From Microcoleus sp. (GTDB lineage Bacteria > Cyanobacteriota > Cyanobacteriia > Cyanobacteriales > Microcoleaceae): DNA of 64,000 nucleotides. Location: NCBI GenBank assembly GCA_042408215.1, contig JAYFMW010000006.1, positions 864,001 through 928,000 of the forward strand. Direction: 5' to 3'. Made by a program: the position numbers and the translations under genes. The notes under the pieces were generated by a model, which saw only the letters and a list, made by a program, of their open reading frames with translations, did no database searches and was not told the origin of the DNA. Below are positions 20,538 to 59,604 of the stretch, in pieces (the first letter of the stretch is position 1; each line of letters starts with the position of its first letter).

Positions 20538-20917
20538 CGAAAAACGAACCAAAGCCCCTAGCTTTAGACATGGGGATGTAGGTGATTAGTGGCTTTAGCC
20601 GCCTTGAGTTTGATATAATCAAGAAGTGATTAAGAACAATTGTCTACGTGTTGAAGTATTCTAGTCTCGGTGAGATTCCGGCACAGTAAGTCACTACTGC
20701 CAATGGTAGCAAGCCTATACAACTGACAAGCAATATCAGAATACGGAGCGTACCTATCTGGCTAGTGATGAACTCTGAAAGCAAAAAACCCAAAAAGTAA
20801 GCCCAATTGCAGCACCGCCAGGTAGTTGTTTTGAGGGTCTAGAGGGATACTTGAATGTCCCACTGTCGCCTTTCGGTTGACAGGAATCCCCTAGCTTCTA
20901 GCTATGGGGAGGTTCAA
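20538..20917 (+). mobile_element. Non-autonomous IS200/IS605-family element with IS608-like ends and no ORF
   Basis: TTAC|cgaaaaacgaacc-AAAG-cccctagctttagacatgggg left end; GAAT-cccctagcttctagctatgggg-aggt-TCAA right end; no protein-length ORF inside. Confidence 0.88.
20611..20619 (+). promoter_or_regulatory. Extended -10 promoter (TGnTATAAT) inside the IS200/IS605-type element
   Basis: tgatataat at 20611-20619, pointing toward the right end; no clear -35. Confidence 0.55.
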
Positions 20918-21042
20918 AGCAAAAGTTAATCGGACTTACGCAGTAAACACGAGAAATCAAGGTTTGAGATTGCTTAACCGGGCTCGCAACGATCTAAAAT
21001 CCTAGGGAGTGCGTAAGTCATGGTTGAGTAAGTCCGGCGCAA

Positions 21043-23331
21043 ATGTCGATCGACCCTCCCGAAAAAATCTCAAATCTTAACTCTCAAATTAAATATATGT
21101 CCTCTGGTAACACTAGTCCATACCAAAGCCGACTATTAAATTTTATATCCAGACAGTCTCGCCAAGTCACCGATCGGTGCGATCGAACTTGGCGAAAAGT
21201 GAGATTGACTACGCTCAACGCAACGCAAATTCTGCTTTACCCAGTTTACCTGATCGTGCAAAGTTCGCGGATGCTGGGCAGACAACTGCGAGAATCAACC
21301 AAAAAAGTAGATTTACCGGAATTGCAAGAATTTGTCGGGGAGGAAAATCCCAATTTGTCGGAAAATTGGTTAGAGATGGAGGTAGAGGGGGAAAGTGCGA
21401 TCGACGAAATTCTGCACATAGCCGAAAATTTGTTGTTACCATCACAAATCTCGACAGTTACCGAAAGCTTTTCGTTTTTAATCAATCCACCAAAACCGAC
21501 TGCAAAAGTTGCTGCTGATATTCAGTTACAGCCGGAAATACAATTGAGCGGAAAAATCACAAAAGCACAAAAAATCACAGGCGAGATGACAGCGCCACAG
21601 AGTCAAGAAAAAAGTGCAAATTTATCACAAAAAATCACAGGCGAGACGCCAGTGTCACAGAGTCAAGAAAAAGATGCAAATTTATCACTGTTCAAAAATG
21701 CTTCAGCCTTAGAAACTCAATTAAGCGATGCCGCCGAAATTGCCAATAAATCGCAAGTTCGAGGAATCGCTACTTTTATACCAGCCCGCACTTTAGTGTT
21801 AGTCGGAACTTCCAATCAAATATTAGATATCTTAACTCCTGAACAACAGCAACTTCTCGAAGGGCGAATAATTTGGGAAGTCGCCAACTCCGGGCCACAA
21901 CGGCGGGAAATTGCCGAAAAAGAGTTAAAATTTAATCTGGGTTTAGAGTCGGCTGCGCGAACATCTCAACTTCCGCCGGTTCGCGGTTTTTGGCAACTGA
22001 TGACTTGGGTACAAAGTAGCCCGGTTGCGGTGAAAAGAAATCAGTTTGGAGAATCAATCTTTGCGGTCAAAAAAGCAATTAATGCTAGTGTTAATGACAA
22101 TTTAATCTTAGCTCAAAAAGCCAGGGATCAAATAGCAGGATTAAAAGTCGATCGACAAGCAATTGCCGCAGCGAATTCGATGGACCAAAATACCTTAGAA
22201 TTAGAAACAAGTTTTAATGGTAAGTTCGATCGAGCTGCGAATATTCTATCCTTTGTCACATTAGTCGATCGCGCCGCAGCCAACCTCGAAGAATTCCGCT
22301 TGCCGCCAGTATCAAAAATCACCGCTGCCTTAACAGAAAATCAGCCGGCAAAAATACTTGATCCAGCCAGCTCCCACAGGAATTTAGGCCCTTCCGCCCG
22401 CGAAATCCTCGAAAAATACGCTCGAAACATAGAAGAAATGATTTGGTCATCAGTAGACCAGCTCCTAGGCAAAGAAACAGCAGCCAGTGATAATACAGAG
22501 AAAGCCGTAGCAATTCAGTATTATTTAGAACAACAAAATAATAAAAATACGGAGAAGGTGGAGAGCGATCGACCTTGGCTGAATTGGCAAGACTTATTTG
22601 GGGAGCCAGCACCAGCACCTGTAGGGGCGGTGTCCCTGGACTCGCCCTCCCCAGCCCAAGGGGCGGTGTCCCCTGGGCCGCCAGCACCAGCACCAATTGT
22701 AGGGGCGGTGCCCCCGTGCCCGCCCTCCCCAGCCCAAGGAGCGGTGCCCCCGTGCCCGCCCTCCCCAGCCCAAGAGCATAGATCGCAACTCAGCACAAAA
22801 GTCAACCATGAGAGCAAAGAAATAGAAACATTGCCCGAAGGTCGATCGGTCAACCTCCGCACCTCTCCTTACCCGGAAGCAATTCAAGCCCTGGTCGCGC
22901 AGCTAAAACGAAGCTTGCTCACAAAAGTGAAAAAAAGTCAACCCCAAAAAGGCTCAGATTTAACAATTACTCAAAAAAAGAGCTCCGTAGTCGCAGCCAC
23001 AGGAACTCAACAGCAAAAACCAACAGCCCCGAACAACGCACAAATCAGCCAGTCTCCAGCAGTCACAACCGTGGAAACCAGCAGATTCGTAGCCACCAGC
23101 ACCACTGCTGTGGCCCGGGAACCTCAAAATAACAGCGGGGACACCAAACAGGAGGGCGACTACTTAGAAACAAAAGCAGTATCAGTGGGATACATTAAGC
23201 ACCCGCTAGAACAAGTGCTCGAATGGCTGGATCAAATCATGCTGCGCCTAGAAACAATCGCGGTGGAAATCTGGGAATCGGCAAAAATCAACTTGCCAAA
23301 AATCAAGAACAGCAAAGATAAAATTGACTAA
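21043..23331 (+). CDS. Hypothetical cyanobacterial protein with repeat-derived low-complexity inserts
   Basis: 762-aa ORF; N-terminal YQSRLLNF and C-terminal GYIKHPLEQVLEWLDQIM blocks look conserved; start may be 21097. Confidence 0.7.
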   Translation: MSIDPPEKISNLNSQIKYMSSGNTSPYQSRLLNFISRQSRQVTDRCDRTWRKVRLTTLNATQILLYPVYLIVQSSRMLGRQLRESTKKVDLPELQEFVGEENPNLSENWLEMEVEGESAIDEILHIAENLLLPSQISTVTESFSFLINPPKPTAKVAADIQLQPEIQLSGKITKAQKITGEMTAPQSQEKSANLSQKITGETPVSQSQEKDANLSLFKNASALETQLSDAAEIANKSQVRGIATFIPARTLVLVGTSNQILDILTPEQQQLLEGRIIWEVANSGPQRREIAEKELKFNLGLESAARTSQLPPVRGFWQLMTWVQSSPVAVKRNQFGESIFAVKKAINASVNDNLILAQKARDQIAGLKVDRQAIAAANSMDQNTLELETSFNGKFDRAANILSFVTLVDRAAANLEEFRLPPVSKITAALTENQPAKILDPASSHRNLGPSAREILEKYARNIEEMIWSSVDQLLGKETAASDNTEKAVAIQYYLEQQNNKNTEKVESDRPWLNWQDLFGEPAPAPVGAVSLDSPSPAQGAVSPGPPAPAPIVGAVPPCPPSPAQGAVPPCPPSPAQEHRSQLSTKVNHESKEIETLPEGRSVNLRTSPYPEAIQALVAQLKRSLLTKVKKSQPQKGSDLTITQKKSSVVAATGTQQQKPTAPNNAQISQSPAVTTVETSRFVATSTTAVAREPQNNSGDTKQEGDYLETKAVSVGYIKHPLEQVLEWLDQIMLRLETIAVEIWESAKINLPKIKNSKDKID

Positions 23332-23412
23332 TCTTTCGCATATGATAAAAAAGTTACTGCAACAGCAGCAGCAAGTCAACTCAGCATTATCGTATTCTTG
23401 GAGACTCCCACA

Positions 23413-23529
23413 GTGCTAACCCTCAAAATCGTAGTTAATGTAGTTGTCCTATTCTTTGCTTCCCTGTTCATATTTGGATTTTTGTCCAATGACCCGGCCC
23501 GGAACCCCAACCGCAGAGACATGGAGTAA
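23413..23529 (+). CDS. psbI: Photosystem II reaction centre protein I (absent from ORF track)
   Basis: GTG start after [42 protein letters not shown]. Confidence 0.97.
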
Positions 23530-23938
23530 ACGGGTAATCTCACCCGCATTGTAGGGGCGCGCCGCAGCCCCTACCGCAGATGACCCACTTCCCAAAAATA
23601 TCTAGAAAAAACTTGACCTCGCCCGCAAGCGAGGTTAGTTTATGTCGAAGGTAAGTTCTGAAAACAGCCATCTTCCGGCCCGCTATCGGCGACCATTGCA
23701 AATTTTGGATGTTGGATTAATATTTAAAGGCTTGCTTTGTAAATGCAAAAATTTAGATGCAAAAATTTTTAAGGATTTGTCTGGCAAAAATTAATTCCCA
23801 CAGAACCAAGGAACCGGCAATCTAAGAATTCAACCAAAATCCACAGACCAGCAAAAAGCATTCACCAGCATTTTTAATTTCTTCAATCTAAAATCTAAAA
23901 TCTAAAATCTAAAATCGGTTGACTCACATTTTGTAATT

Positions 23939-26473: not shown

Positions 26474-26480
26474 TTCAATT

Positions 26481-26891
26481 TGGTAATGGGTAATGGGTAA
26501 TGGGTCATCGGTCATCGGTCATCGGTAATGGGTAATGGGTCATCGGTAATGGGTCATCGGTAATGGGTCATCGGTAATGGGTAATGGGTAATGGGTCATC
26601 GGTAATGGGTCATCGGTAATGGGTAATGGGTAATGGGTAATGGGTAATGGGTCATGGGTAATGGGTCATCGGTCATCGGTCATCGGTCATCGGTCATCGG
26701 TCATCGGTAATGGGTCATCGGTCATCGGTAATGGGTCATCGGTAATGGGTCATCGGTAATGGGTTATTGGCACCAACAAATAACAAATAACCCATAACAA
26801 ATAACAAATAACCCATAACAAATAACAAATAACAAATAACAAATAACCCATAACAAATAACAAATAACCAATAACAAATAACAAATAACCC
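26481..26891. repeat. STRR heptamer arrays (GGTAATG/GGTCATC)n followed by (AACAAAT)n
   Basis: Direct reading. Confidence 0.95.
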
Positions 26892-27563
26892 ATGACAGAA
26901 GTGACAGCAATATCTGCACAAGCAGCGGCTCTGCTGCTTCACTACGGTTTTGACCTAGGTGGCTACAAATCCGAGAAATTGGTGATGGAATGGCTGACCA
27001 AATATCCCCACCAATGGCTGCGTTTAGCAGTGGTTGAAGCGCTATATCAAGGTCGCTACAAAGCTGTTTCTGTGGAACAAATATTGAGTATGTGGCAGCG
27101 GCTGGGTCAACCTCTTTATCATTTTAATGGCGAGTTTGAACGTTTGGTTTGCAACAATTTTCCTCAAGATTTAACGGTTGAAAGTGATGCTAAACAGGTG
27201 CCGGAAAAGATATTTTTGCCGACGGCTGCATCGGATGTCGGTGTCCCAGAACTAGATTTGTTGCCGCCGCCAGAGCCTGAGTGCGATCGGGTGCAACATC
27301 CAGAATTCCCAGAGCTCAAGACTCAGGAAATAGAAGCATCATCCGCAGTCAATCGCACGGGGGAAACTGCGGAAGTTGTGATTTATGAAGAAGATTTGGC
27401 AGTGACTGCGGTGGCAGACCAAGCCGAAGCCGATCGGGAATTTGCCGAAAAATCGGTGGCAAAAATAGCCCCAATTGTCAAACACACCGATTTTCACTCC
27501 AAATTAACAGCCATTGCCCGAGAAGGCAAAAGGAAGAAGGGAGAAAGAAGAAAGAAGTTGTGA
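26892..27563 (+). CDS. Conserved cyanobacterial hypothetical protein
   Basis: [11 protein letters not shown]...[42 protein letters not shown]. Confidence 0.75.
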
Positions 27564-38892: not shown

Positions 38893-41800
38893 ATGCCGGC
38901 AGGTAATTCCACCATAGATTTATCAAAAAACTGGTGCGGCGTAGAAGCTGGATTGGATAAACTTGAGAACATCCTCGACAACCAACTACAGACAATTAAA
39001 CTGCCAATCATCGGCCCCCTCAAAGACATTTATCCAAATTTTATTGACAACTTCAAAAGTAAGCTAGTCAATGCTGTAAAAAATGGGGAAAATCAAAGTC
39101 TGAGTCAATTAGAAAGTAGCATACGCAATACTTTAGGGCCAGATTTTGATGTCAAAGTAGATGGAAATTCAACTGCCGATGACAGCACCCTGCTAATTAC
39201 ACTTGGGAAGAAATACCAGTTCCCGGATATCAATCTCTCCAAAGATTTAGGAGTTCCAGCTCTAGGTTTAAACATCGATGGGAAAGCGAAATCAAAATAC
39301 GAATACAACTTGTCGCTAGGAGTTGGGAGCAGTAAAGATTTTGGCTGCTACATAGATACTGACAAAACCAAGTTAACCGCCAACATTGACTTGGGTTTAG
39401 ATGACCAATTCAAGGCTAAAGGCAACTTAGACTTTTTCCAAGTTGACCTTGCAAACGATACCAAAAACCCTACTAAAGTCGATGCCAACCTTGAAGTCAA
39501 GCTCAATGACTTAGATAATCTGGGCGGTACTGATGATGGCAATCGTTTAACTTTGTCTGAGTTGGACGGCAGTTATCAGTTACAAGACTTATTTCAATCT
39601 AGCTTAACCAGTAATGCCAATCTCGGCTTGCACGGCAAAACTAGCATCAACGGCGATGCTGCTTTTCCATCTTTTGACTTCGACTTAGCAGTTAATTGGC
39701 CGATCCTAAATTACGCTAACGGTCAATTAACCAGGCCGCAAAAACCCACAGTTGCGTTTAACAATATGCAACTAGATGTGGGGACATTTGTCAATAATTT
39801 TGCCAAACCAATTGTCGGTAAAATTTCCGATGTCATTCAACCATTTCGACCAGTTATTGAGTTTCTGAATGCCGACACCAAGTTACTGTCTAAAATAGGT
39901 CTAGCTGAGCCATTTTATCAAAATGGGGATGGCAAAGTCAGTGTACTAGAACTGGCAGCAAAAATCTCTGGTCGCGATATCGATACTCGCTTTTTAGATG
40001 CGGTTGCCCAGGTTGATAAAGTTGTTAATTTGGCAAACCAAATAGCAAATTTTCCCCGCTCAAATTGACTTGGGTTCCTACACTCTGGGTAATATAGATG
40101 TTGCCGATGAAAGTGCTAATCTTCAGAATACTTTACCAGTCCCAAAAACTTCTGTTCAGCAAACCGCTAACCAACAAATTAACTCCAAAACAAGCGGCAA
40201 AGTCAAGGAATTCTTAAATGCTTTACAAGATTGATGGCTTTGATTTGCCACTCTTGACCAAACCGGAAACCGCGATTCAATTGCTGATAGGTAAACCGGA
40301 TGTTCCGGTTTTAAGCTATCAGATGCCCAAACTGGGATTTGACTTTAACATTCGCAAAGATTTTCCGATTTGGGGGCCGATCGAGGCTTTACTTGAAGGC
40401 AAGTTTAGTGCTTCAGCTCATCTAGGATTTGGGTACGATACCTACGGATTAAGTGAGTGGAAAAACTCTAATTTTGCTGCGGGTTCTGCTGACCAAGTTT
40501 TGGATGGATTTTATGTGAGCGATCGCGAAAATGCTGACGGTACAGGGCCAGATGTTGACGAACTCAGTCTTGACGCTAGTATTGCCGCGGGTTTGGGGCT
40601 AGATGTGATATTTGCCGAGGGTTATCTCAAAGGTGGAATTCAAGGAAAAGTCGGCATTGATCTGATAGATATTGGAGAATTCCAGCCCAAACAAGGCGGT
40701 GACGGCAAAATTCGAGTATCAGAAATCACTTCCCGCATCAGCAAACCCTCGGAACTGTTTGATGTAACAGGACAAATCAATGCTTTTTTGGGTGCTGAAT
40801 TTAAAGTAGGATTTTGGAAATGGAAAAAAACAGTCTACGATAATAACTTTGCCACATTTGAGTTAGCTAGCTTTAGTTTAGGGCCGAGTTCTAGCACTAG
40901 GGGCAAAGCAATTAACGGTTACATGGCCGGGGCGACTGTCTTCTTCGATGCCAACTTCAATGGAGTAAAAGATGACAGCGAACCGTTCTCAATTACTAAC
41001 GCGGATGGCAGCTTTGACTTAGATGTCTCTCTTGACAATTTCGACAAAAATAATAGCGGCGACCTCGAACCGGAAGAAGGCAAAATTGTCATTACCGATG
41101 GCATAAATACCTCTACTTATTTGTCGCAGCAAACGCCTCTCTTTGCCACACCAGATGCTACTGTCGTCACTCCGTTAACTACCCTATTGACCGAGTTAGT
41201 CGAGGCAGGTACTGACCAAAATCAGGCGCAAATTCAAGTTAAATCTGCACTGGGATTGCCGTCAACAATTGATTTGACTGGCTACGATCCGCTACAGGCA
41301 ATTACTCAAAACGATCCGAACGGTTTGGCGGTTTATGCAGCGCACATTCAGGTACAAAACGTTGTTGTTCAGACGACAATTTTAATCGGCGGGATTTCAG
41401 CTAACTCTCAAACCGATATTGCCGATCGCATTATTTCCACCCTTGCCAATCAAATTCAATCCGGCCCTGTCGATTTAACCAATCCCGCACAATTGCCAAC
41501 CATCATTCAGTCTGCTGCGACTCAACTGCAAGCACAAAAAGCGTCCGATATTGCACCGGAAGCTGCTCGAATTATTGCAGAGGGGAATCAGCGGGTACGG
41601 GCGATCGCATCTAGCAACATCCCCCTTTCAGATGCAGCTACTAAACTAGCCAAAATTCAACAAGTCGCACAAGGAGAAGTAGCCCAAGATTTACAGTAAG
41701 TTGCAGCCGGAAATAAGACAATTCAAGAGGCGATCGCCGAAAATACAGGCACATCCTTAGACGCACAAATTCAATCAGCAACTGTCAATAACCCCACAAT

Positions 41801-42270
41801 TCGCAACAGTATAAATAGTGACTTCACTGCTGCCGAACCTTTCCCCGATAGTGGCATAGAATTAGTCAACAATTCCCCCAATCAAAAAATCGGTACGGAT
41901 GGCGACGATACTCTAGGCGGCGACAGCAGCGATGAGGTTTTAAGTGGCAAAAAGGGAAATGATTTGATCTTTGGTTTTAACGGCAATGACTGGATTAATG
42001 CCAATCAAGGCAATGACTTAATAAATGGCGGTTTTGACGACGATACCCTTTACGGCGGCAAGGGAATTGATACCATTACAGGTAGCGATGGTGGCGATAT
42101 TATCTTTGGCAACCGAGGCGACGATTTACTAGATGGCAGCACTGGCAATGATACTTTGCGCGGAGGCAAGGGAAATGATACTATTATTGGCGGTGAGGGT
42201 GACGACTTCCTATTCGGTGAAGATGGAGATGACAGTTTGATAGGAGGGAATGGGAGCGAGCGCTTTTTAT

Positions 42271-42565
42271 AAGAAATACCCTGAAAACCCTGCGACTTTA
42301 GTCCAGGGATGAAAGGGCGTTGCAGGATTTATCCTGCCTGCCCCATCTTGACAAACTGATTTTGGTTTGATAAAGTTGTTGAAACTTAGTTGGTGAAAAA
42401 CCCGACAGTTGCAAGCCGTTAGGCAAAAAAGTAGCCATAGACTCAGCCACTCGCTGTGTGGGTAGTGGGTATCTGACTTACCCTTTAAGAATTAAACTTT
42501 GGGCGGATTCATCCCCCAATGTTTGTCCTTAAGAATCCCCGCGTCTTCAGACCGGGGAGTGTCAA
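42271..42565 (+). mobile_element. Non-autonomous IS200/IS605-family element (295 bp, no ORF), clean insertion without target duplication
   Basis: TTTAT|aagaaataccctg-AAAA-ccctgcgactttagtccaggg left end; GAAT-ccccgcgtcttcagaccgggg-agtg-TCAA right end; removal restores ERFLLSTNSGIDT in frame. Confidence 0.92.
42348..42376 (+). promoter_or_regulatory. Sigma70-type promoter inside the element
   Basis: TTGACA (42348-42353), 17-bp spacer, TAAAGT (42371-42376) preceded by TGn. Confidence 0.65.
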
Positions 42566-42871
42566 TATCTACCAATTCTGGCATTGATACTATCTGGGAT
42601 TTTGAAGATGGAAAAGATTTGCTAACACTCGCAAACAATCTCACTTTCTCCCAAATGTCAATTACTCAAGAAAACAGTTCAACTTTAATTCGCTTGTCAG
42701 CAACAAGTGAAATTTTAGCCTCTCTCAATGGGGTGTCTGCCAGCCTGATTAATGTCGCCGATTTCAATTTAGCTTAGAGCAGTATTCTTGCGTCCCCCTT
42801 TGTAGGGGCGGTGCCCCCTGGCCCGCCCTAGGGCCGATCGGGAAGACTGTCAACTCAGACAGTAGAATAAA

Positions 42872-44149
42872 TCAAAGTTCTAAGGGAGCAACAGCGTTTA
42901 ATAAATCTTCTAGTATAAACCTGAGCAAAGATTGAGTTGCTAATACTAAACCTAATCGGGCTTGAGCGAGTTTTGGTGTTTCTATTTTCACTTCGCCCCA
43001 AATCCGGCACTGGCTGTAAAATGTCTGAAAAGCTGTGCTCAAATTATTAGCTAATTTGAAATAATTGACGGGTTTTTCGTCGTTGTAATGTTCAATAATA
43101 GGAGCTAAACTGTCTAGAACTGCTAACAGTTGTGAGATTAAATTGCTTTCTGCTGGATGTACTAATCGTAGTCGCCCATCTGCGTCGAGCCAGGGGATGG
43201 GGTTTGGATCTGAAAGCGACCAAATTTGGGGTGTTGGAGCCCGATCGAATTCGACGATCGCAATTATCCGATCGCGGTGGGCCATTCGCAGCAGAGAACA
43301 GCAGCGGGCGTGGCTGTATTGAATGGGAAACAGTCGATCGACCGGCACAACAGGAGATAATATTTGAGACTCTGGAAGTGGTAGCGCAGTTTGAGCTAAA
43401 CGCTGCAACCAGACGGCTAAAGCTACATCAGTCAACTCAAACTCAATGATCCCCGACGGCGCGACTGCAATGGTGAAATCTCCGTTGCACAGCGGTTCCA
43501 GGGTTTCGGCTAACTGTGTGGCGATGGCCTGGGGTGTCTGCTGCCACACTCTTTGATACTCTTGGATATCATACTCTGCCAATTTGAGGGCGATCGCAGA
43601 TACATACAGCACTCGCGTGCTATTTTTAGCCCGATTTAACGGAATTTCATGGCGACAGGTGTCTTTAGTCAGTTTTAACCCAGATGTTGCACCAATGTTA
43701 GTAACAGGCAAGATGCCTGTTCCACAAGAAATCAAGTTTTTTGTGGGGTGGGCTTCTAGCCCGCCACTGCCAGGCTGATAGACAATGCCGATCGCCTCGG
43801 AGTCAGTAACAGGCAAGATGCCTGTTCCACAAGAAATCAAGTTTTTTGTGGGGTGGGCTTCTAGCCCGCCACTGCCAGGCTGATAGACAATGCCGATCGC
43901 CTCGGAGTCAGTAACAGGCAAGATGCCTGTTCCACAAGAAATCAAGTTTTTTGTGGGGTGGGCTTCTAGCCCGCCACGCAAGATGCCTGTTCCAGAAGAA
44001 ATCAAGTTTTTTGTGGGGTGGGCTTCTAGCCCGCCACTGCCAGGCTGATAGACAATGCCGATCGCCTCTTCGATCGCATACCGCAGCCTCCTGTTCAACC
44101 AACTTTTGAGTGTGAGTTCCCGAAACTTCCAGTTATTGACTGTATTCAT
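42872..44149 (-). CDS. DALR anticodon-binding-domain protein (ArgRS-like, no catalytic core) with translated repeat insertion
   Basis: YVSAIALKL, FPIQYSHARCCSLLR, FQTFYSQCRIWGEV, LAQARLGLV, APLEL; start may be 44149 or 44215. Confidence 0.8.
   Translation of the reverse strand: MNTVNNWKFRELTLKSWLNRRLRYAIEEAIGIVYQPGSGGLEAHPTKNLISSGTGILRGGLEAHPTKNLISCGTGILPVTDSEAIGIVYQPGSGGLEAHPTKNLISCGTGILPVTDSEAIGIVYQPGSGGLEAHPTKNLISCGTGILPVTNIGATSGLKLTKDTCRHEIPLNRAKNSTRVLYVSAIALKLAEYDIQEYQRVWQQTPQAIATQLAETLEPLCNGDFTIAVAPSGIIEFELTDVALAVWLQRLAQTALPLPESQILSPVVPVDRLFPIQYSHARCCSLLRMAHRDRIIAIVEFDRAPTPQIWSLSDPNPIPWLDADGRLRLVHPAESNLISQLLAVLDSLAPIIEHYNDEKPVNYFKLANNLSTAFQTFYSQCRIWGEVKIETPKLAQARLGLVLATQSLLRFILEDLLNAVAPLEL
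43700..44068. repeat. 105-bp tandem repeats built from ACAGGCAAGATGCCTGT and GTGGGGTGGGCTTCTAGCCCGCC palindromes, read in frame
   Basis: gtaacaggcaag at 43701, 43806, 43911, plus a 60-bp sub-duplication near 43978. Confidence 0.9.
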
Positions 44150-44522
44150 AACTCTGATACTGTTACCGCTTGCACTGTCTTTGTACGTCAAACTGCTGAT
44201 CCTCTTTGATCTCATATTTTGATATCATCTCTGGCGTTCGGCATCAACAACCAGGGCTGTATCGAAATCATCGGCTATCTGGTCGCTGAGCTTAGTCGAA
44301 GCGTTTGCCAAATTGGCAAGAATTTTTGCTGGATTCAACTATTTAGATGTATTTTTTGCTACATTAAATTTTTAGGTAAAACTGACAAGAACAAGCAAAG
44401 CTGGTGCAAGCTCGATCGGGGGTTGGTAATTCTCACTTTGTATCGAGATGTTGGCGGTCGCTGCTCTTGGCTCTTTGATATCATCTATCTCTCACTGATT
44501 AAATATATCCCCAAGCCTCACC

Positions 44523-53335: not shown

Positions 53336-53566
53336 GTTTTTGACGGTATTGTATGCGATATTTTATGCGATATTTTATGCGATCGGCTGGGGGCGGGTCG
53401 ATCTATACTATTAGTTACCTAAAATATATCTGGTGAAACCCGCGCCTTGTATTTTGAAAGAGGTAAATGGCGATTTATCGTGGCGCGGGGGCGGGTTTAT
53501 GAGATAATTGGTCTTAGGCACTGATGGTTGGTAAAACCCGCCCCTACAAGTTATCATTCTTTAGCT

Positions 53567-53974
53567 ATGTTTTTTGTACCACATCCCCTTGTAGCACCAA
53601 CAGTTATAGCTCAAATTAGACCGACTGTCGAAAGTTTACCCGATGGAGACTACCGGTACCGAGACTCCTTTGCGATCGATCGACCTTTTAGAGAAATCCA
53701 ATTTCGCAAACAAGACAGATACATCACCGGCAGCGATTCCGACAAAGCCACGGGTAAAAGCTACTGTTTTCGGGGAATTGCCCTACACAATAACATTATT
53801 AACATCACTGTAGCCACTGAAATTTATCTCAAAACCTCGCCCACACAGCAAACCGAGTGGAAATTGGAGCCGGGAAGCCCAATTAATTTCGACAAACTTT
53901 ATCCGCTGCAAGCTGGGCCCGGATTACAATTGTACAAATGTTTGACAGCATTTTTGCCAAAATTGAAAGATTAG
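53567..53974 (+). CDS. Hypothetical protein
   Basis: Start reassigned to ATG 53567 because the upstream part is a palindromic repeat; SLPDGDYRY...SYCFRG. Confidence 0.6.
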   Translation: MFFVPHPLVAPTVIAQIRPTVESLPDGDYRYRDSFAIDRPFREIQFRKQDRYITGSDSDKATGKSYCFRGIALHNNIINITVATEIYLKTSPTQQTEWKLEPGSPINFDKLYPLQAGPGLQLYKCLTAFLPKLKD

Positions 53975-54340
53975 TCATTAGTTATTAGTCATTAGTCATT
54001 AGTCATTAGTCATTAGTCATTAGTCATTGGTCATTGGTCATTGGTCATTAGTCATTAGTCATTGGTCATTAGTCATTAGTCATTGGTCATTAGTCATTAG
54101 TCATTAGTCATTAGTCATTGGTCATTAGTCATTAGTCATTAGTCATTGGTCATTGGTCATTAGTCATGCGTAATTCGTCATTAGTCATTGGTCATTAGTC
54201 ATTGGTCATTAGTCATTAGTCATTGGTCATTAGTCATTAGTCATTGGTCATTGGTCATTAGTCATTGGTCATTAGTCATTAGTCATTGGTCATTGGTCAT
54301 TAGTCATTGGTCATTGGTCATTAGTCATTAGTCATTGGTG
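53972..54340. repeat. Long STRR heptamer array (TAGTCAT/TGGTCAT)n
   Basis: Direct reading. Confidence 0.95.
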
Positions 54341-56279
54341 ATTGGTGAGAGATTATTAGTTATTGGTAGCAGCTAACCAATAACTAATAACCAATAACAA
54401 ATAACCAATAACAACATCCTAATAACCAGCATTTTTCAACTCTTCTTTGAGCATTTGTCGGTAGACTTTCGGCAAACTAGAACTCATAGAATTGTTCTCA
54501 ATGCCATAGCCCAAACTCGTCCAGGTTCCCGACAGCATCCGCAATACCTGACTTAATTTTTCCGATCGCAGCATCTCAGAAATATCAGCTTTCCAAAACT
54601 TGCGATCGCTCAACCAAGCATAAACCACAGCATCCTGATATTCTGGCTCAAAACTGTAATCTTGCCACATCATAAAATTAGCAGGTTTCGGGTGATAGCG
54701 CTTAGCCTTATCCTTCCAAGTCGAACTCAAAAATTGATACCTACCCGCCGCCGTAGTACAGTTACCCCGATTCGGGCCATTCACAATCGTCACGCACCAG
54801 TCAGGATGGTGACTCAAATCTAATATGTATTTGCCACCATAAACAACATGATAAGGTCGAGAAACATTCGACTCGCTAGCAGAAATAGTTCGCATCAGCG
54901 CCCGAATGTAAGGATCGCCCGCTTTCATAGCTAGTGGCGGCAATTTGCGAACCTCACTTGCTTGGGGAGATAACGGCGGCAAACCCCGCCAACTGACAGC
55001 CAAAAAAACAGCGCCGCCAATCACAGCGCCGATTAATATTAGAAATCCCAGGATTTGAATTTCCGATCGCCTCAGCAAACCCCCCGGTTGACGGCGGAAT
55101 TGTTGAGCTTGCAGCCAACTCATTTCCATTTCAGCAATTTCGGCCAATTTTGTAGCAGCCCGCATCCGGCGCACCCGGAAATCGTGTTGATATAGTGGCG
55201 CAGCCAACAGCGTCAAACTCGACAAAGCCCCAGCCAATCTAAGCAGCCAGAAATCGAATTCACCAGCTAATGCAACTTTTGCATTGGTCATTGGTCATTA
55301 GTCATTGGTCATTGGTCATTAGTCATTAGTCATTGGTGATTGGTGAGAGATTATTAGTTATTGGTAGCAGCTAACCAATAACTAATAACCAATAACAAAT
55401 AACCAATAACAACATCCTAATAACCAGCATTTTTCAACTCTTCTTTGAGCATTTGTCGGTAGACTTTCGGCAAACTAGAACTCATAGAATTGTTCTCAAT
55501 GCCATAGCCCAAACTCGTCCAGGTTCCCGACAGCATCCGCAATACCTGACTTAATTTTTCCGATCGCAGCATCTCAGAAATATCAGCTTTCCAAAACTTG
55601 CGATCGCTCAACCAAGCATAAACCACAGCATCCTGATATTCTGGCTCAAAACTGTAATCTTGCCACATCATAAAATTAGCAGGTTTCGGGTGATAGCGCT
55701 TAGCCTTATCCTTCCAAGTCGAACTCAAAAATTGATACCTACCCGCCGCCGTAGTACAGTTACCCCGATTCGGGCCATTCACAATCGTCACGCACCAGTC
55801 AGGATGGTGACTCAAATCTAATATGTATTTGCCACCATAAACAACATGATAAGGTCGAGAAACATTCGACTCGCTAGCAGAAATAGTTCGCATCAGCGCC
55901 CGAATGTAAGGATCGCCCGCTTTCATAGCTAGTGGCGGCAATTTGCGAACCTCACTTGCTTGGGGAGATAACGGCGGCAAACCCCGCCAACTGACAGCCA
56001 AAAAAACAGCGCCGCCAATCACAGCGCCGATTAATATTAGAAATCCCAGGATTTGAATTTCCGATCGCCTCAGCAAACCCCCCGGTTGACGGCGGAATTG
56101 TTGAGCTTGCAGCCAACTCATTTCCATTTCAGCAATTTCGGCCAATTTTGTAGCAGCCCGCATCCGGCGCACCCGGAAATCGTGTTGATATAGTGGCGCA
56201 GCCAACAGCGTCAAACTCGACAAAGCCCCAGCCAATCTAAGCAGCCAGAAATCGAATTCACCAGCTAATGCAACTTTTG
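54284..56279. repeat. 998-bp tandem duplication
   Basis: 54284-55281 matches 55282-56279; no differences noticed by eye. Confidence 0.9.
54419..55291 (-). CDS. 5'-truncated duplicate of the lambda-R-like muramidase gene
   Basis: Same translation as the C-terminal part of 55417-56703; the ATG is supplied by STRR sequence. Confidence 0.55.
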   Translation of the reverse strand: MTNAKVALAGEFDFWLLRLAGALSSLTLLAAPLYQHDFRVRRMRAATKLAEIAEMEMSWLQAQQFRRQPGGLLRRSEIQILGFLILIGAVIGGAVFLAVSWRGLPPLSPQASEVRKLPPLAMKAGDPYIRALMRTISASESNVSRPYHVVYGGKYILDLSHHPDWCVTIVNGPNRGNCTTAAGRYQFLSSTWKDKAKRYHPKPANFMMWQDYSFEPEYQDAVVYAWLSDRKFWKADISEMLRSEKLSQVLRMLSGTWTSLGYGIENNSMSSSLPKVYRQMLKEELKNAGY

Positions 56280-56703
56280 TCAGAGTAGATATTCCTGCTA
56301 GCAATTCCCCCGGATTAAGCGATCGCGCCTGCCAATAAAAAATCGCAACTTGCACCAGCAGCGACAGATTAAATGCCAGAAAGATTACTACTAGAGCATT
56401 CAAACCTTCCCGGAAGTGCGATCGAATACCAGTATGTCGGCGCTGGAACTTACCTGCTATGTGAAAGCGGCCAGGTAGCAGAGTTAGTATGGGATTTAAG
56501 ATGGTGACGGCTAAAAAGTGAACAACAAAGAACAAAGGTAACTGAATTAGCCAAGCAGTTAGCAATAGAGTCAAAAAGCTCAGATCGTCATTGACTAAAG
56601 GAATGCCCCTGTTCACTACAAAACTAAAACTCTGAGCGAGGACAAATGCCCTTAACCAGGAAATCGGATAGGGGAACCAAGCTGGCCACTTGAGAGTTTT
56701 CAT
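55417..56703 (-). CDS. Membrane-anchored lambda-R-type lytic transglycosylase/muramidase (GH24/GH104-like)
   Basis: N-terminal TM segments; RALMRTISASES, YGG...HP, TAAGRYQFL..TW, FEPEYQD, LSGTWTSL. Confidence 0.85.
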   Translation of the reverse strand: MKTLKWPAWFPYPISWLRAFVLAQSFSFVVNRGIPLVNDDLSFLTLLLTAWLIQLPLFFVVHFLAVTILNPILTLLPGRFHIAGKFQRRHTGIRSHFREGLNALVVIFLAFNLSLLVQVAIFYWQARSLNPGELLAGISTLTKVALAGEFDFWLLRLAGALSSLTLLAAPLYQHDFRVRRMRAATKLAEIAEMEMSWLQAQQFRRQPGGLLRRSEIQILGFLILIGAVIGGAVFLAVSWRGLPPLSPQASEVRKLPPLAMKAGDPYIRALMRTISASESNVSRPYHVVYGGKYILDLSHHPDWCVTIVNGPNRGNCTTAAGRYQFLSSTWKDKAKRYHPKPANFMMWQDYSFEPEYQDAVVYAWLSDRKFWKADISEMLRSEKLSQVLRMLSGTWTSLGYGIENNSMSSSLPKVYRQMLKEELKNAGY

Positions 56704-56904
56704 GGAAAATCAATCGATTTGAGATTTGAGATTTGAGATGGGAGGCGGGCTTGCAACAGGCTGGACGGCCTGTTCCACAATACATTAGTTCGCGATCGCA
56801 TGGGGGCCGAGAAACCGGGTTTTTTTACGAAAAGACGGGTTGTAGCCCCCAGATTCAGTAAAAAACCCGGTTTCTTTAATCAAAGTGCGTCCAGGACTAT
56901 TCCA

Positions 56905-57564
56905 TCAAACCACACCCGCAAACAATTCCAGAAAACTCTTTTCCGTCGCCTCCGACTTCGCCACAATCTCCACAAGCTTATTGCGAGAAGCCGGCTCAAA
57001 TAGAGCCTCCACACACACTTGAGCTACCTTAGTGCGGGGAATACTACCATCTGATAGTTTGTCCGCTGACTCCATGACGATCGCATTAGAATTATCTTCA
57101 TTTTTGAGACCGCCTGGACGGACAATAGTGTAAGTTAGCCCACTTTTTTGCAAATATTCCTCAGCTTGCTTCTTCCAAACCAAAATCAACCAGAACAAAT
57201 TCAGCGGGTGGAAAAAGTTAGACACGCACAGAGAAGTCACCAGCACAAAATGCTCAATTCCCTTAGCCTTAGCTGCATCCACCAAATTTTTAGTTCCCTC
57301 AAAATCCACCCGATAAGGCGCTGTCGGGTCAAAACCAGGGGCTGCACCCGTCGCGCAGAGCAATACCGTACTATCACCGATGGCATCACTGAGAGATGTA
57401 GCATTTAATACATCTCCCGTGACTAACTCAGCTTCCGGGGGTAAAATTTGCCTAGCTGTCTCTAAATTACGGACTAGAGCACGTACGGGAATCCCGCGCT
57501 TTACCAATTCAGTGACAATTCGGCGTCCAGTCTGGCCTGTGGCTCCTGCTACAAATGCTTTCAT
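56905..57564 (-). CDS. NAD(P)H-binding atypical SDR (Tic62-like)
   Basis: MKAFVAGATGQTG, VRALVR, VDFEGTKNL, YTIVRPGGL. Confidence 0.9.
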   Translation of the reverse strand: MKAFVAGATGQTGRRIVTELVKRGIPVRALVRNLETARQILPPEAELVTGDVLNATSLSDAIGDSTVLLCATGAAPGFDPTAPYRVDFEGTKNLVDAAKAKGIEHFVLVTSLCVSNFFHPLNLFWLILVWKKQAEEYLQKSGLTYTIVRPGGLKNEDNSNAIVMESADKLSDGSIPRTKVAQVCVEALFEPASRNKLVEIVAKSEATEKSFLELFAGVV

Positions 57565-57919
57565 CAGAAAATTGGGTTTGAAACCCCGTCCTTTTAGGAC
57601 GGCTTTGCTTGATTTGATAAATTAGTTGCCTACCTCTTTCGAGGCGGAGGGGTATGGTTGCCCCTCCTTTGGAGATATGGTTGTCTCCAGTCCCTTTCGG
57701 GTAAAGTTCGCTTCGCCAATGTTATAAGAGCTTGTTAGGCTGAAAGCACTGTTCCAGTGACCTTAGAACTGTTTAACTAGCAGCGACAGAGCAAGGGACT
57801 AGCGTCGCATCCCAGGGTGTCGTGACTCAAATAACGTAGTCAGCTAAGACTTAGGCTGGTCAGAATGGCTTGTTCGATTACTCTTGCAAGCCCCGTCCCT
57901 TAAGGGCGGGGTTCCTGAC
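57565..57919. mobile_element. Non-autonomous IS200/IS605-family (IscB/HEARO-type) element, 355 bp, no ORF
   Basis: TCAT|cagaaaattgggttt-GAAA-ccccgtccttttaggacgg at one end; CAAG-ccccgtcccttaagggcgggg-ttcc-TGAC at the other; abuts the ATGA start of the SDR gene. Confidence 0.9.
57692..57919 (-). ncRNA. HEARO / IscB-type omegaRNA scaffold
   Basis: Minus strand: GTCAGGAACCCCG..GGGGCTTG..CAAGCC..CTGACCAGCCTAAG..CTACGTTAT..ACACCCTGGGATG..CTAGTCCC..GCTCTGT..GTTAAACAG..CAGTGC..ATAACATTGGCGAAGC..TTACCCGAAAGGG, in HEARO motif order. Confidence 0.85.
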
Positions 57920-58049
57920 AAATCGAGTTATCCTGAACTAGGGTATGTTTTGTTGCTACCAGCAAGTTTCCATTCTCAATTGTAGGGAGTTTCCTCCCTT
58001 GCCACATCCCCAACCCGAGTAATAGGCGTGTATTAAAGGAGAGCGAACC

Positions 58050-58763
58050 ATGAAGCAGGATTCCGCCGAATATCCAACCGTTGAGGCTTCCGATCAACTT
58101 TGGTATCCAGATTCGAGTTTCCAGCCAACGGAAAGTGAAGGTGCAGATGTAGCCGAGTCAGTTGAGCAGACTTGGTTTCGCACCCATTTTGAAGACAGCA
58201 TGGAGATGTATGCGGATGCTGAGACGGTGGCCAAGCATTTTAACAATCACAAGAGTTGGTTTAGTAAGTGCGCTTTGCCGATGAAGGCAGAATCGATCGG
58301 AGAAAATGGCTACGATTTATTAATCGGCCGTTTTGGTGCTTTCGGCTACCGCGTTGAAGTCAGAATTGGTTTAGAACTACTACCTCCTGATGCCGAAGGG
58401 TGCTATTTGATTAGAACAATTCCGGTTCCGAATTATACGCCACCCGGATATGAAGTTAATTTTTGCTCCGCGATGAATTTGGTGGAAATACCTGCTGACG
58501 AGTTTGCCACAAATTGGCCGACTTCCGAGCGTTCTAAGTTGCCACCTGTGATTACCAGTGCTGCGTGGAAGCTGGATTTAGCAGTAGGAGTTCACTTTCC
58601 GAAGTTTATTCTATCCATGTCTGAATCTTTAATTCAAAAAACCGGCGAGGGAGTTTTGGAAAAAATTATCAAACAAGTTAACCGCCGCTTGACTTATAAA
58701 ACTCAGCTGGTTTTTCACGAAAGTTTGGGAATTCCTTTTCCTCAAAAACCCAAAAAACATTAA
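58050..58763 (+). CDS. DUF1997-family protein
   Basis: MEMYADAETVA..F..H..WF..CALPMK, IGRFGAFGY.VE..IGLELLP; AAGGAG ribosome-binding site. Confidence 0.8.
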   Translation: MKQDSAEYPTVEASDQLWYPDSSFQPTESEGADVAESVEQTWFRTHFEDSMEMYADAETVAKHFNNHKSWFSKCALPMKAESIGENGYDLLIGRFGAFGYRVEVRIGLELLPPDAEGCYLIRTIPVPNYTPPGYEVNFCSAMNLVEIPADEFATNWPTSERSKLPPVITSAAWKLDLAVGVHFPKFILSMSESLIQKTGEGVLEKIIKQVNRRLTYKTQLVFHESLGIPFPQKPKKH

Positions 58764-58904
58764 TTTCGCTCCCTCTTAAATCTCTCAAACTAAGAGGGGT
58801 GATAGTTTTGATTTTTGAGTTTTGGTCAGGAGAATAATTTTGAGTTTTGAGTTTTGAGTAGATGAGAATTTTCCCTCATCCTTCTGACTTCTGACTTCTG
58901 ACTT

Positions 58905-59549
58905 TTAAGCTGCTGTCAAAATTTGCTCTCTCAACTTCCCAATCAACTCATTCACCCCCCCCGTATTCAAACGGTAACTCAAAGGATGGCCAATCAAATA
59001 AGCCGAACTTTCAAACAAAACGTCAATCTCCACCAAACCATTTTCCTGCAAAGTTTTGCCCGTCGCCACCAAATCCACGATCGCCTCCGACATTCCCGTG
59101 ATCGGCCCCAATTCCACAGAACCGTAAAGCGGCACAATTTCCACCGGCAAATTCAAATTGTGAAAATATTCCCTTGCACAGTGGACGAATTTAGAAGCAA
59201 CTCTACCATGAGGCGGCAAGTCCACAGTTCTGCGGTAAGAACTAGATTCTTTCACCGCCACCGACAGCCGACATTCACCAAATTTTAAATCTATTAAATT
59301 TGCAACCTTCGGCTGTTTTTCCCGCAAAACATCATAACCAGCAATCCCCAAATCCGCTTGACCGTATTCCACATAAACCGGCACATCATGGGTTCTGACT
59401 AGCAAAGCTTTTGCAGTTCCGGTAGGGTCGTAAATTTGAAGTTGGCGGTTAGATGAATCTAGAAAAGCACTGAAGTCTAATCCAACAGATTTGAACAGTC
59501 TAATGCTATCTGCTAACAGTCCACCTTTGGGAAGTGCTACGGTAATCAT
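58905..59549 (-). CDS. hisG: ATP phosphoribosyltransferase, short form
   Basis: [54 protein letters not shown]. Confidence 0.97.
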
Positions 59550-59604
59550 AAAAATACTCGGTAAGTGGGAAACTCTGAGTCTTCAGACTTGAGAGGGAAA
59601 CGAC
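59550..59604 (+). mobile_element. Solo IS200/IS605-type left-end remnant abutting the hisG start codon
   Basis: TCAT|aaaaatactcggtaagtgg-GAAA-ctctgagtcttcagacttgagag hairpin; same gtcttcagac apex as the 42271 element; no right end found. Confidence 0.5.

What the first reader, a model, noticed from the sequence alone, without database searches (positions are those of the whole stretch)
20538..59604. Four protein-less IS200/IS605-type units with different target motifs: a possible trans-acting, RNA-only OMEGA guide network
Seen: three 295-380 bp elements (20538-20917, 42271-42565, 57565-57919) and one solo end (59550-59604) have subterminal hairpins and no transposase or nuclease ORF. Established: in IS608 the tetranucleotide 5' of each hairpin specifies the cleavage site (AAAG->TTAC, GAAT->TCAA). 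Seen: every end here fits that pairing rule (AAAG->TTAC, AAAA->TTAT, GAAT->TCAA twice, GAAA->TCAT twice, CAAG->TGAC). Inference: these are streamlined cassettes that keep only ends, a promoter and an omegaRNA. They would borrow TnpA and TnpB/IscB in trans, and each insertion would create a new guide from its flank. This is my best candidate for the hidden system.
Basis: partly seen in the sequence, partly recalled or inferred. Interest (0 to 1): 0.85.

Follow-up and report, generated by a model that had tools for sequence, protein, structure and literature searches.

The report
Protein-less guide-RNA mini-transposons in a cyanobacterium
Four small gene-less mobile elements of a known transposon family carry only their ends and a guide-RNA scaffold; this is a known kind of element, and only one of the four has an extra RNA domain that is not yet catalogued.

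Summary
All four units are real IS200/IS605-type elements without ORFs, and their boundaries are sharp.
- E1 (20538-20917) has 3 copies, all after TTAC.
- E2 (42271-42565) has 30 copies, all after TTAT. It is a deletion derivative of a TnpB element with 31 full-length relatives.
- E3 (57565-57919) holds a full HEARO/IscB omega-RNA on the minus strand (164.6 bits). It is one of 45 ORF-less HEAROs among 70 in the genome. An empty site in related strains joins 57564 to 57920.
- E4 (59550-59604) is a solo end of the same IscB family.

The genome holds TnpA, IscB and at least 150 TnpB matches. It is already in print (Meers 2023). No guide matches a second genomic site, so there is no targeting network.

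E3 and E4 abut host start codons (TCAT = ATGA). In this genome 25 of 41 such elements do so. This scan reported that pattern before, in this genome and in others.

The one possibly new piece is E1. Its roughly 300-nt RNA has its own conserved -10 box and a covarying 170-nt 5' domain. That domain was not found in the tnpB loci examined and is not in Rfam. It occurs in four cyanobacterial families.

The parts
20534..20537 (+). TTAC target of E1, which would also be the TAM of a TnpB-type guide
   Evidence: 3 of 3 copies follow TTAC
20538..20917 (+). E1: ORF-less IS608-like element, 380 bp
   Evidence: 3 full copies at 97.6-100% identity with unrelated flanks; longest open frame 64 aa
20551..20575 (+). 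E1 left-end guide tetranucleotide AAAG plus imperfect hairpin
   Evidence: read; 77% like the left end of a TnpA element at G000:C20 ~692.1 kb, which has CAAG and target TGAC
20589..20619 (+). Terminator-like hairpin (20589-20602) followed by -10 box TATAAT (20614-20619)
   Evidence: terminator-like hit; -10-like hexamer at a fixed distance in 42 of 51 family members against 7.3% of random windows
20619..20802 (+). E1 5' RNA domain (~170-185 nt), structured, not catalogued
   Evidence: model R1 170.3 bits; helices 1-4 covary; no Rfam hit; no hit in 7 TnpB/TnpA loci
20794..20917 (+). E1 TnpB-type guide-RNA scaffold-like tail with right-end hairpin (GAAT 20884-20887, hairpin 20888-20909, TCAA 20914-20917)
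   Evidence: nhmmer positions 168-296 match the 3' ends of tnpB elements (E 4e-10 to 1e-5); helices 5-7 covary
20918..20937 (+). Flank in the guide position of E1
   Evidence: geometry only; no second genomic site with one mismatch or fewer
42267..42270 (+). TTAT target of E2
   Evidence: 30 of 30 copies
42271..42565 (+). E2: miniature derivative of a TnpB-only IS, 295 bp, inserted in an RTX calcium-binding repeat gene
   Evidence: flanking ORF pieces 41700-42269 and 42568-42774
42348..42376 (+). Promoter-like TTGACA-17-TAAAGT in E2
   Evidence: 10 of 12 matches; -10 intact in only 9 of 16 E2a copies, so weak
42427..42565 (+). E2 guide-RNA scaffold region, matching the last 139 nt of TnpB parents, with the right-end hairpin
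   Evidence: 86-94% identical to the 3' ends of 31 elements of 1.44-1.62 kb; parent ORF is TnpB by Pfam; TnpB C-terminal remnant
42566..42585 (+). Flank in the guide position of E2
   Evidence: geometry; no second site
57561..57564 (+). TCAT target of E3; on the minus strand it reads ATGA, the start codon of the NAD(P)-binding gene 56905-57564
57565..57919 (+). E3: ORF-less IscB-type (ISC) element, 355 bp; the transposon top strand is +
   Evidence: empty-site joint 57564|57920 in X1 and X3; one of 45 ORF-less HEARO loci
57565..57607 (+). E3 left end (GAAA plus hairpin CCCCGTCC...GGACGG)
   Evidence: 134 copies of this end type in the genome, 14 with HEARO, 65 followed by an ORF of 300 aa or more in the same direction
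57608..57700 (-). Three small hairpins 3' of the Rfam HEARO model, two with loop CAACCAUA
   Evidence: shared by short-form mini-elements; Meers 2023 notes that RF02033 lacks downstream structure
57701..57919 (-). HEARO / IscB omega-RNA scaffold, full length, beginning at the right end (CAAG ... TGAC)
   Evidence: RF02033 164.6 bits, gathering score 83, model 1-211
57920..57935 (-). Flank in the guide position of E3 (5' of the scaffold); a -10-like TACAAT lies at 57984-57979 on the minus strand
   Evidence: geometry; TACAAT read by eye; no formal promoter hit
59546..59549 (+). TCAT target of E4; on the minus strand ATGA, the start codon of hisG 58905-59549
59550..59604 (+). E4: solo left end (GAAA plus hairpin CTCTGAGTC...) of the IscB family whose full-length members are 1.6 kb
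   Evidence: 32 places in the genome; the same end in 25 aligned mini-elements and 4 elements of 1593-1699 bp, which include the 2 intact IscB parents; the X5 contig diverges after 59604

Best explanation
The four units are non-autonomous miniature IS200/IS605 elements (PATE-like). Each keeps the two subterminal hairpin ends that a Y1 transposase (TnpA) needs. Three of them also keep the scaffold of the family's guide RNA.
- E3 is an IscB-type (ISC) element that has lost iscB but retains the whole HEARO omega-RNA.
- E2 is an internal-deletion derivative of a TnpB-only IS that keeps the tnpB 3' end and right end, which encode the TnpB guide scaffold.
- E1 belongs to an old, consistently ORF-less lineage. 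In it, a promoter and a structured 170-nt 5' domain sit in front of a TnpB-type scaffold.
- E4 is a dead solo end.

Shown: identity, copy number, exact boundaries, target motifs, RNA conservation and covariation, and the presence of TnpA, IscB and TnpB genes elsewhere in the genome.

Inferred: TnpA supplied in trans moves the elements. After excision, IscB or TnpB supplied in trans, loaded with the element's RNA, cuts the emptied site (guide = adjacent flank, TAM = target motif). Copying from a sister chromosome then restores the element (the homing model of Meers 2023). For the IscB type the guide must be transcribed from outside the element. That would explain why most copies, including E3 and E4, sit exactly between a host promoter and the ATG of an ATGA start.
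For: Identity of E3. HEARO scores 164.6 bits at 57701-57919 on the minus strand. The genome has 70 HEARO matches. 25 are followed by an IscB RRXRR domain and 45 are not.

ORF-less HEAROs keep model scores like the IscB-linked ones (median 126.9 against 133.1 bits). 40 of 44 are nearest to two intact IscB loci, and E3 is 84% identical to the one at C8. That locus encodes RRXRR plus HNH.

E2. There are 30 copies, all after TTAT. The ends are shared with 31 elements of 1.44-1.62 kb, and 25 of those have an ORF of 400 aa or more. The one tested is TnpB by Pfam.

E1. There are 3 recent copies. About 23 family members in the genome are all ORF-less. Structure counts: 95.3% of cells paired against 33-49% when partners are slid; 18 pairs with double changes against 5-9; 0 of 500 shuffles reach the observed score. 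A conserved -10 is present in 42 of 51 members. The tail is homologous to tnpB 3' ends.

Mobility. The E3 site is empty in related strains.

TnpA. 20 Y1_Tnp matches. TnpA genes lie next to E1-type and E3-type hairpins and are confirmed by Pfam.

Start-codon docking. In 25 of 41 elements the ATG is the first ATG of an ORF of 100 codons or more. The figure is 4.8% for all ATGA sites and 13.2% for ATGA sites outside long ORFs, P about 1e-12.

Published model. Meers 2023 passages and the Kapitonov 2016 N|ATGA target.
Against: There is no transcript evidence. The only RNA-library data were assembled contigs of relatives, which show neither strand nor ends.

Trans use of nucleases is inference. ORF-less HEAROs are on average about 80% identical to the nearest IscB-linked HEARO, and cross-usability is unknown.

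For E1's own subfamily, no TnpB-bearing element in this genome shares the 3' tail at E 1e-8 or better. Only subfamily B has such a counterpart.

No TnpA-bearing element with E2's exact hairpin stems was found.

The E2a -10 is mutated in 7 of 16 copies.

Covariation among copies could have arisen in ORF-bearing ancestors.

Retention of the scaffold could partly reflect TnpA's need for the right end. This covers the first HEARO hairpin only.
Confidence: 0.7

Rival explanations
1. The units are inert deletion relics. They are leftovers of TnpB/IscB elements that still hitch-hike on TnpA, and their RNAs are not used by any nuclease.
For: E4 is a 55-nt stub. E2 carries a decayed TnpB C-terminal remnant, and its promoter-like -10 is intact in only 9 of 16 copies. 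No transcripts are shown. E1 has no close TnpB-linked scaffold in the genome.
Against: ORF-less HEAROs keep full-length, high-scoring structure despite about 20% divergence. The E1 family shows strong covariation and a conserved promoter across four cyanobacterial families, always ORF-less. ORF-less HEARO copies outnumber their two intact parents about 20 to 1.
Confidence: 0.18
2. The units are host-domesticated RNA modules. The HEARO elements at start codons, and the E1 RNA, serve the host as 5'-leader or regulatory RNAs rather than serving the transposon.
For: 25 of 41 HEARO elements sit exactly on start codons, sense to the gene. E3 lies between the likely promoter region and the ATG of an NAD(P)-binding gene, and E4 lies in front of hisG. 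E1 has its own promoter and an unexplained 5' domain.
Against: The E3 insertion is polymorphic: the site is empty in relatives. Copies sit at unrelated genes. The ATGA target motif (Kapitonov 2016), together with the need for outside transcription (Meers 2023), explains the position without a host function.
Confidence: 0.08
3. A true trans-targeting guide network exists. The flank-derived guides direct nucleases, or dead nucleases, to other loci in the genome for regulation or defence.
For: Many guides and many nucleases coexist in one genome.
Against: For the three window guides, the only perfect match is the element's own flank. The next-best sites have 2-3 mismatches, and none carries the TAM.
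Confidence: 0.03

Closest known systems
PATEs: protein-less IS200/IS605 derivatives carrying omega-RNAs, as noted for Geobacillus stearothermophilus by Meers et al. 2023 (PMC10055086; passages read)
   Same: There is no ORF. Both subterminal hairpin ends are kept, and an omega-RNA scaffold is retained. TnpA and nuclease must come from other elements. The ends are shared with TnpB/IscB-bearing elements in the same genome.
   Different: Here the host is a cyanobacterium and the numbers are much larger: 45 ORF-less HEAROs, 30 E2 copies and about 23 E1-type elements. The E1 type has an added 5' RNA domain and its own promoter, which are not described in the passages I read.
ISC transposons with the N|ATGA target, e.g. 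ISC1-1_MA of Microcystis aeruginosa (Kapitonov, Makarova, Koonin 2016, PMC4810608; passages read)
   Same: The target is ATGA (TCAT on the top strand) and the 5' GTCA terminus is in the iscB sense. One terminus is shared with abundant TnpB-only IS605B elements that are encoded in the opposite orientation. There is no target duplication.
   Different: E3 and E4 lack iscB. The paper does not contain the phrase 'start codon' (0 occurrences), so the start-codon docking is not described there.
HEARO RNA, Rfam RF02033 (the IscB omega-RNA)
   Same: E3 matches the full model 1-211 at 164.6 bits.
   Different: No HNH/IscB ORF follows. Three extra hairpins follow the model's end.
IS608 (Helicobacter pylori) and ISDra2-type TnpB elements with a 3' guide RNA (recalled)
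   Same: E1 uses the same TTAC/AAAG and TCAA/GAAT pairs as IS608. E1 and E2 place a scaffold at the right end with the flank as guide.
   Different: There is no tnpA or tnpB. The E1 RNA is about 300 nt, and its 5' domain was not found in the tnpB genes examined.

Membership tests
IS200/IS605 non-autonomous element (PATE-like) | Imperfect subterminal hairpins at both ends and no terminal inverted repeats | tested here: met
   Read; the end hairpins are conserved in all copies
IS200/IS605 non-autonomous element (PATE-like) | Insertion 3' of a fixed tetranucleotide, without target-site duplication | tested here: met
   TTAC in 3 of 3 copies; TTAT in 30 of 30; TCAT in 41 of 45 HEARO elements with a located end; exact empty site 57564|57920
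IS200/IS605 non-autonomous element (PATE-like) | The tetranucleotide 5' of each hairpin matches the cleavage site (IS608 rule, recalled) | tested here: met
   7 of 7 ends fit. Related left ends with CAAG sit after TGAC. The rule itself was not checked in a paper.
IS200/IS605 non-autonomous element (PATE-like) | No transposase or accessory ORF, and ends shared with protein-coding elements of the genome | tested here: met
   Longest frames are 64, 73, 52 and 18 aa. E2 shares ends with 31 TnpB elements. E4 shares its end with four 1.6-kb IscB elements. E3's end type precedes 65 ORFs of 300 aa or more. For E1 only the left end is shared, at 77%, with a TnpA element.
IS200/IS605 non-autonomous element (PATE-like) | Mobilised by TnpA in trans | not testable with these tools
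   TnpA genes are present (20 matches), some beside matching hairpins. Excision was not assayed.
HEARO / IscB omega-RNA (RF02033) | Covariance-model score above the gathering threshold over the full model | tested here: met
   E3 only: 164.6 against 83 bits, model 1-211. E1, E2 and E4 give no match.
HEARO / IscB omega-RNA (RF02033) | An IscB (RRXRR + HNH) ORF lies immediately downstream | tested here: not met
   No RRXRR within 500 nt and no IscB similarity in E3. It is an ORF-less copy.
HEARO / IscB omega-RNA (RF02033) | Bound and used as a guide by IscB | not testable with these tools
   18 intact IscB-linked loci exist. Binding was not assayed.
TnpB omega-RNA (right-end guide RNA) | The scaffold is encoded by the 3' end of tnpB plus the right end, with the guide being the 3' flank | tested here: met
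   E2 positions 157-295 are 86-94% identical to the last 139 nt of TnpB parents. E1 positions 168-296 are distantly homologous to tnpB 3' ends (E 4e-10 to 1e-5). For E1 the match is inconclusive at subfamily level.
TnpB omega-RNA (right-end guide RNA) | Conserved secondary structure with covariation | tested here: met
   E1 family: helices 5-7 all have double changes. E2 was not formally tested.
TnpB omega-RNA (right-end guide RNA) | Match to a curated RNA family | tested here: not met
   No Rfam 15 match for E1, E2 or 10 E1-type loci. Rfam gave no TnpB IS605 omega-RNA model hit.
IStron (group I intron fused to an IS200/IS605 element) | Group I intron core at the left end | tested here: not met
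   No group I intron match at E up to 10 in E1 or up to 5 in 10 family members

The most novel reading that the evidence does not exclude
E1-type elements are not decay products. They are an independent, self-expressed RNA-only transposon lineage. A conserved promoter drives a structured 170-nt 5' domain that is fused to a TnpB-type guide scaffold. The domain was not found in the tnpB genes examined and is not in Rfam. It would give the guide RNA its own expression, processing or nuclease recruitment, or some new activity. This would let an element with no protein gene persist across at least four cyanobacterial families, even where no closely matching tnpB is present.
Probability: 0.3. Interest if true: 0.7.

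Novelty: new member of a known kind. Interest (0 to 1): 0.42.

Why it matters
The window gives clean natural examples of how far the RNA-guided transposon system (the ancestor of Cas9 and Cas12) can be stripped down. What remains is the ends plus a guide scaffold, in dozens of copies, depending on a handful of nuclease genes elsewhere in the genome.

It also gives natural confirmation that changing one base of the end's guide tetranucleotide changes the insertion site.

The practical value lies mainly in the E1-type RNA. If its 5' domain helps to express or load a TnpB guide without the tnpB messenger, that would be of use for compact genome editors. It would also bear on how guide RNAs became independent genes (tracrRNA-like).

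Tried and rejected
1. Expression. One run search and one laying of four RNA-library runs gave only assembled contigs of related strains. They show no strand, no ends and no proof of transcription. High depth over 57507-57910 reflects the multicopy family. They are used only for the empty-site joint.
2. Rfam at E up to 10 on E1 and E2, and up to 5 on 10 E1-type loci, returned only chance-level matches (snoRNA and the like) or nothing.
3. The sigma-70 scan found no promoter in the E1 or E3 regions and one in E2. The E1 -10 was established only by comparison.
4. I looked for E1's 5' domain in tnpB genes. nhmmer over the genome and model R1 with filters off on 7 TnpB/TnpA loci found none. tblastn of four TnpB proteins against family members found only the last 14-21 residues.
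5. I looked for a TnpB-bearing twin of E1's own 3' tail and found none at E 1e-8 or better.
6. I looked for a TnpA element with E2's exact hairpin stems and found none among 15 TnpA loci.
7. Guide off-targets: none. The 'network' reading is therefore rejected.
8. Papers. A search for 'IscB' + 'start codon' + 'ATGA' + 'transposon' returned 0 papers. A search for 'TnpB', 'PATEs', 'guide RNA', 'cyanobacteria' (3 of 4 terms) returned 40 papers, and none of the 15 listed looked, by title and abstract start, like a description of the E1-type RNA. Weinberg 2009 (PMC4140389) is not held. Altae-Tran 2021 was not found, so what I say of both is recalled.
9. The IStron and TldR-like readings were considered and dropped (see membership test).

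Full report
**Setting.** The window is G000:C6:864001-928000 of a 7.36-Mb, 30-contig cyanobacterial genome. The genome is crowded with IS200/IS605-type parts:
- 70 matches to the HEARO RNA family, 64 of them above Rfam's gathering score
- 31 matches to the IscB RRXRR domain
- 150 listed matches to the TnpB zinc-ribbon domain, out of 290 candidates of which only 150 were scored
- 20 matches to the Y1 transposase domain

None of these protein matches lies inside the window, so within the window the four units really are protein-less.

- E1 (20538-20917) has three copies in the genome at 97.6-100% identity. All three follow TTAC, end in TCAA and have unrelated flanks.
- E2 (42271-42565) has 30 full-length copies in two subfamilies: 16 at 90% or more, and 14 near 75% with a different middle. 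All 30 follow TTAT and end in GTCAA.
- E3 (57565-57919) has boundaries proven by an empty site. A 1170-nt contig in run X1 and a contig in X3 join 57564 directly to 57920, with 17 other differences over the 1170 nt.
- E4 (59550-59604) is 55 nt long. It matches 31 other places in the genome, most of them the far end of HEARO elements.

The IS608 pairing rule is recalled, not checked in a paper. The genome supports it naturally. A TnpA-bearing element has a left end 77% like E1's but carries CAAG in place of AAAG, and it sits after TGAC. Two IS605-like tnpA/tnpB elements have E3's hairpin with CAAG, and they also sit after TGAC. The longest open frames inside the units are 64, 73, 52 and 18 aa.

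**E3 and E4: the IscB type.**
- Rfam places a full-length HEARO RNA, the IscB omega-RNA, on the minus strand at 57701-57919. It scores 164.6 bits against a threshold of 83.
- The RNA starts at the element's TGAC end. The transposon's chemically defined top strand is therefore the opposite strand. This agrees with Kapitonov et al. 2016 (iscB and tnpB in opposite orientation; passages read) and with Meers et al. 2023 (the HEARO is bounded by the right end).
- Of the 70 HEARO matches, 25 are followed within 500 nt by an RRXRR domain and 45 are not.
- The ORF-less copies are complete elements of 335-580 bp. They have one of two left-end types: the E3 type (hairpin CCCCGTCC) and the E4 type (hairpin CTCAGAGTC).
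- Four elements of 1593-1699 bp carry the E4-type end. Two of them have intact IscB, and one was checked by Pfam as RRXRR + HNH.
- The E3-type end occurs 134 times in the genome: 14 times with a HEARO and 65 times in front of a same-direction ORF of 300 aa or more. This fits Kapitonov's finding that ISC and TnpB-only IS605B elements share a terminus.
- 40 of 44 ORF-less HEAROs are closest to the HEAROs of just two intact IscB loci. E3 is 84% identical to the one at C8:38348.
- The ORF-less copies keep model scores like the IscB-linked ones (median 126.9 against 133.1 bits).
- After the end of the Rfam model, the mini-elements carry further small hairpins. In E3 these lie at 57608-57700, and two have the loop CAACCAUA.
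- E4 keeps only the conserved 55-nt end block. A contig of run X5 diverges from the window exactly after 59604.

**Start codons.**
- TCAT on the top strand reads ATGA on the HEARO strand. E3 abuts the ATG of an NAD(P)-binding-domain gene (56905-57564, minus strand). E4 abuts the ATG of hisG (58905-59549, minus strand).
- A left end was located in 45 HEARO elements, and 41 of them have TCAT. In 26 of these 41 the ATG opens a frame of 100 codons or more. In 25 it is also the first ATG after an in-frame stop when the two flanks are read together.
- The background is 15.4% and 4.8% for a tenth of all ATGA sites, sampled at random.
- Among ATGA sites that lie outside ORFs of 150 aa or more, or that are themselves such starts, 13.2% are starts. 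The binomial P for 25 of 41 is about 1e-12.
- Meers 2023 already argued that IscB guides must be transcribed from outside the element, and reported co-oriented upstream genes. The phrase 'start codon' does not occur in that text or in Kapitonov 2016. A four-term search found no paper.
- The pattern is not new to this scan. Earlier notes report it in this genome (e1-7816776, e1-7686973, e1-7816810) and in others. I re-derived it independently here.
- A -10-like TACAAT lies 60 nt upstream of the E3 guide on the minus strand. I read it by eye, and the formal scan found nothing.

**E2: the TnpB type.**
- Its first 70 and last 139 nt also bound 31 elements of 1.44-1.62 kb. 25 of these carry one ORF of 400 aa or more. 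The one tested is TnpB (OrfB_IS605 + TNB).
- E2 keeps the part of tnpB that overlaps the guide scaffold. tblastn still sees the last 76 residues of TnpB (45% identity, E 7e-15).
- The near-consensus promoter TTGACA-17-TAAAGT is not conserved. The -10 is intact in 9 of 16 E2a copies and absent from E2b.
- In the window, E2 interrupts an RTX calcium-binding-repeat gene. The pieces 41700-42269 and 42568-42774 lie in frames that fit each other across the element.

**E1: the least ordinary unit.**
- An nhmmer profile finds about 23 near-full relatives of its 295-nt core in the genome. They fall into at least eight subfamilies with different end hairpins, and none contains an ORF.
- Core positions 168-296 match the 3' ends of tnpB elements. 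The match starts at the conserved AAAGTA that encodes the TnpB C-terminal '..RKV..'.
- The first 170 nt are found only in ORF-less elements. There is no nhmmer hit in any tnpB. Covariance model R1 gives no hit on 7 TnpB/TnpA loci with filters off. Rfam gives no match.
- On 22 sequences from 12 genomes, the consensus structure has 30 pairs, and 95.3% of cells are paired against 33-49% when partners are slid. 18 pairs carry double changes against 5-9 in the slid controls. 0 of 500 shuffles reach the observed covariation.
- The family occurs in 21 of 24 sampled genomes of the same genus, plus two other families. Model R1 finds the 5' domain in 13 of 151 sampled genomes of the phylum, including G000. 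The 12 others lie in three families of the same order (at most 17 candidates were scored per genome). With G027, that makes four families.
- All 15 foreign loci inspected are ORF-less and have the same layout: left end, small hairpin, -10 box, 5' domain, A-rich linker, scaffold, right end.
- A TAnA[ACG]T hexamer lies 24 to 43 nt before the CTACG anchor in 42 of 51 members (40 of them at 27 to 36 nt), against 7.3% of random windows. Three members lacked the anchor by my pattern and six have variant hexamers.
- Against a simple trans-TnpB reading: no TnpB-bearing element in this genome shares the 3' tail of E1's own subfamily at E 1e-8 or better. Only subfamily B has such a twin (87% over 125 nt).

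**Mechanism.** Shown: what the elements are, that they have moved recently, and that TnpA, IscB and TnpB are encoded elsewhere, some next to matching hairpins. Inferred: mobilisation by TnpA in trans, and retention by nuclease-plus-RNA cutting of the emptied site, as in the model of Meers 2023. The three window guides match nothing else in the genome with one mismatch or fewer, and the near matches lack the TAM. The guides are therefore aimed at their own empty sites, not at a network of other targets. Transcription was not shown, because the RNA-library data were contigs of related strains.

**Comparison and verdict.**
- The units pass the tests for protein-less IS200/IS605 derivatives (PATEs).
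- E3 is a member of HEARO, except that it lacks the adjacent ORF.
- E2 and the tail of E1 work like TnpB right-end guide RNAs. No curated family exists to test this against.

The concept that such elements borrow nucleases in trans is in print. The finding is therefore real, well observed and largely ordinary. The open item is the E1-type RNA with its extra domain.

Noticed in passing
window 40218-42272: The ORFs 40218-41699 and 41700-42272 are in the same frame and are separated by a single stop codon at 41697-41699. The RTX-repeat gene hit by E2 may therefore already carry an in-frame stop, or these may be two adjacent genes.
   Followed up: no
window 42872-44224 (minus strand): This ORF contains three tandem copies of a ~35-residue segment (…GGLEAHPTKNLIS[CS]GTGIL…), seen in the translation. 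It may be a short DNA repeat read in frame.
   Followed up: no
G000:C5:344670-345547 (L009): Two E1-type elements sit in tandem. The first has an E3-type left-end hairpin (CCCCGTCC) combined with an E1-type RNA core, so end types and RNA cores are shuffled between families.
   Followed up: partly
G000:C1:90673-91208 and G000:C26:114344-114883: An E2b copy and an ORF-less HEARO element lie tail to tail, so the same ~20 nt sits in the guide position of both (flanks).
   Followed up: partly
window 57608-57700 and sister elements: Downstream of the Rfam HEARO model, the short-form mini-elements have two hairpins with the same loop, CAACCAUA. Long-form copies instead carry ~140 nt of other conserved structure.
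   Followed up: no
window 20928-21020: Just past the E1 guide position, a 12-nt inverted repeat (GGACTTACGCAG … GTGCGTAAGTC) brackets ~70 nt upstream of the ORF at 21043 (read).
   Followed up: no
window 59604/59605: A contig of run X5 matches 59347-59604 and then continues for 77 nt that are unlike the window. Related strains may carry a longer element where the window has only the solo end.
   Followed up: no
G000:C30:129992-131607: A full-length E2-type element has a split tnpB, and a weak Y1_Tnp match (22 bits, below the cut-off) lies just inside its left end. This may be a trace of a former tnpA.
   Followed up: no
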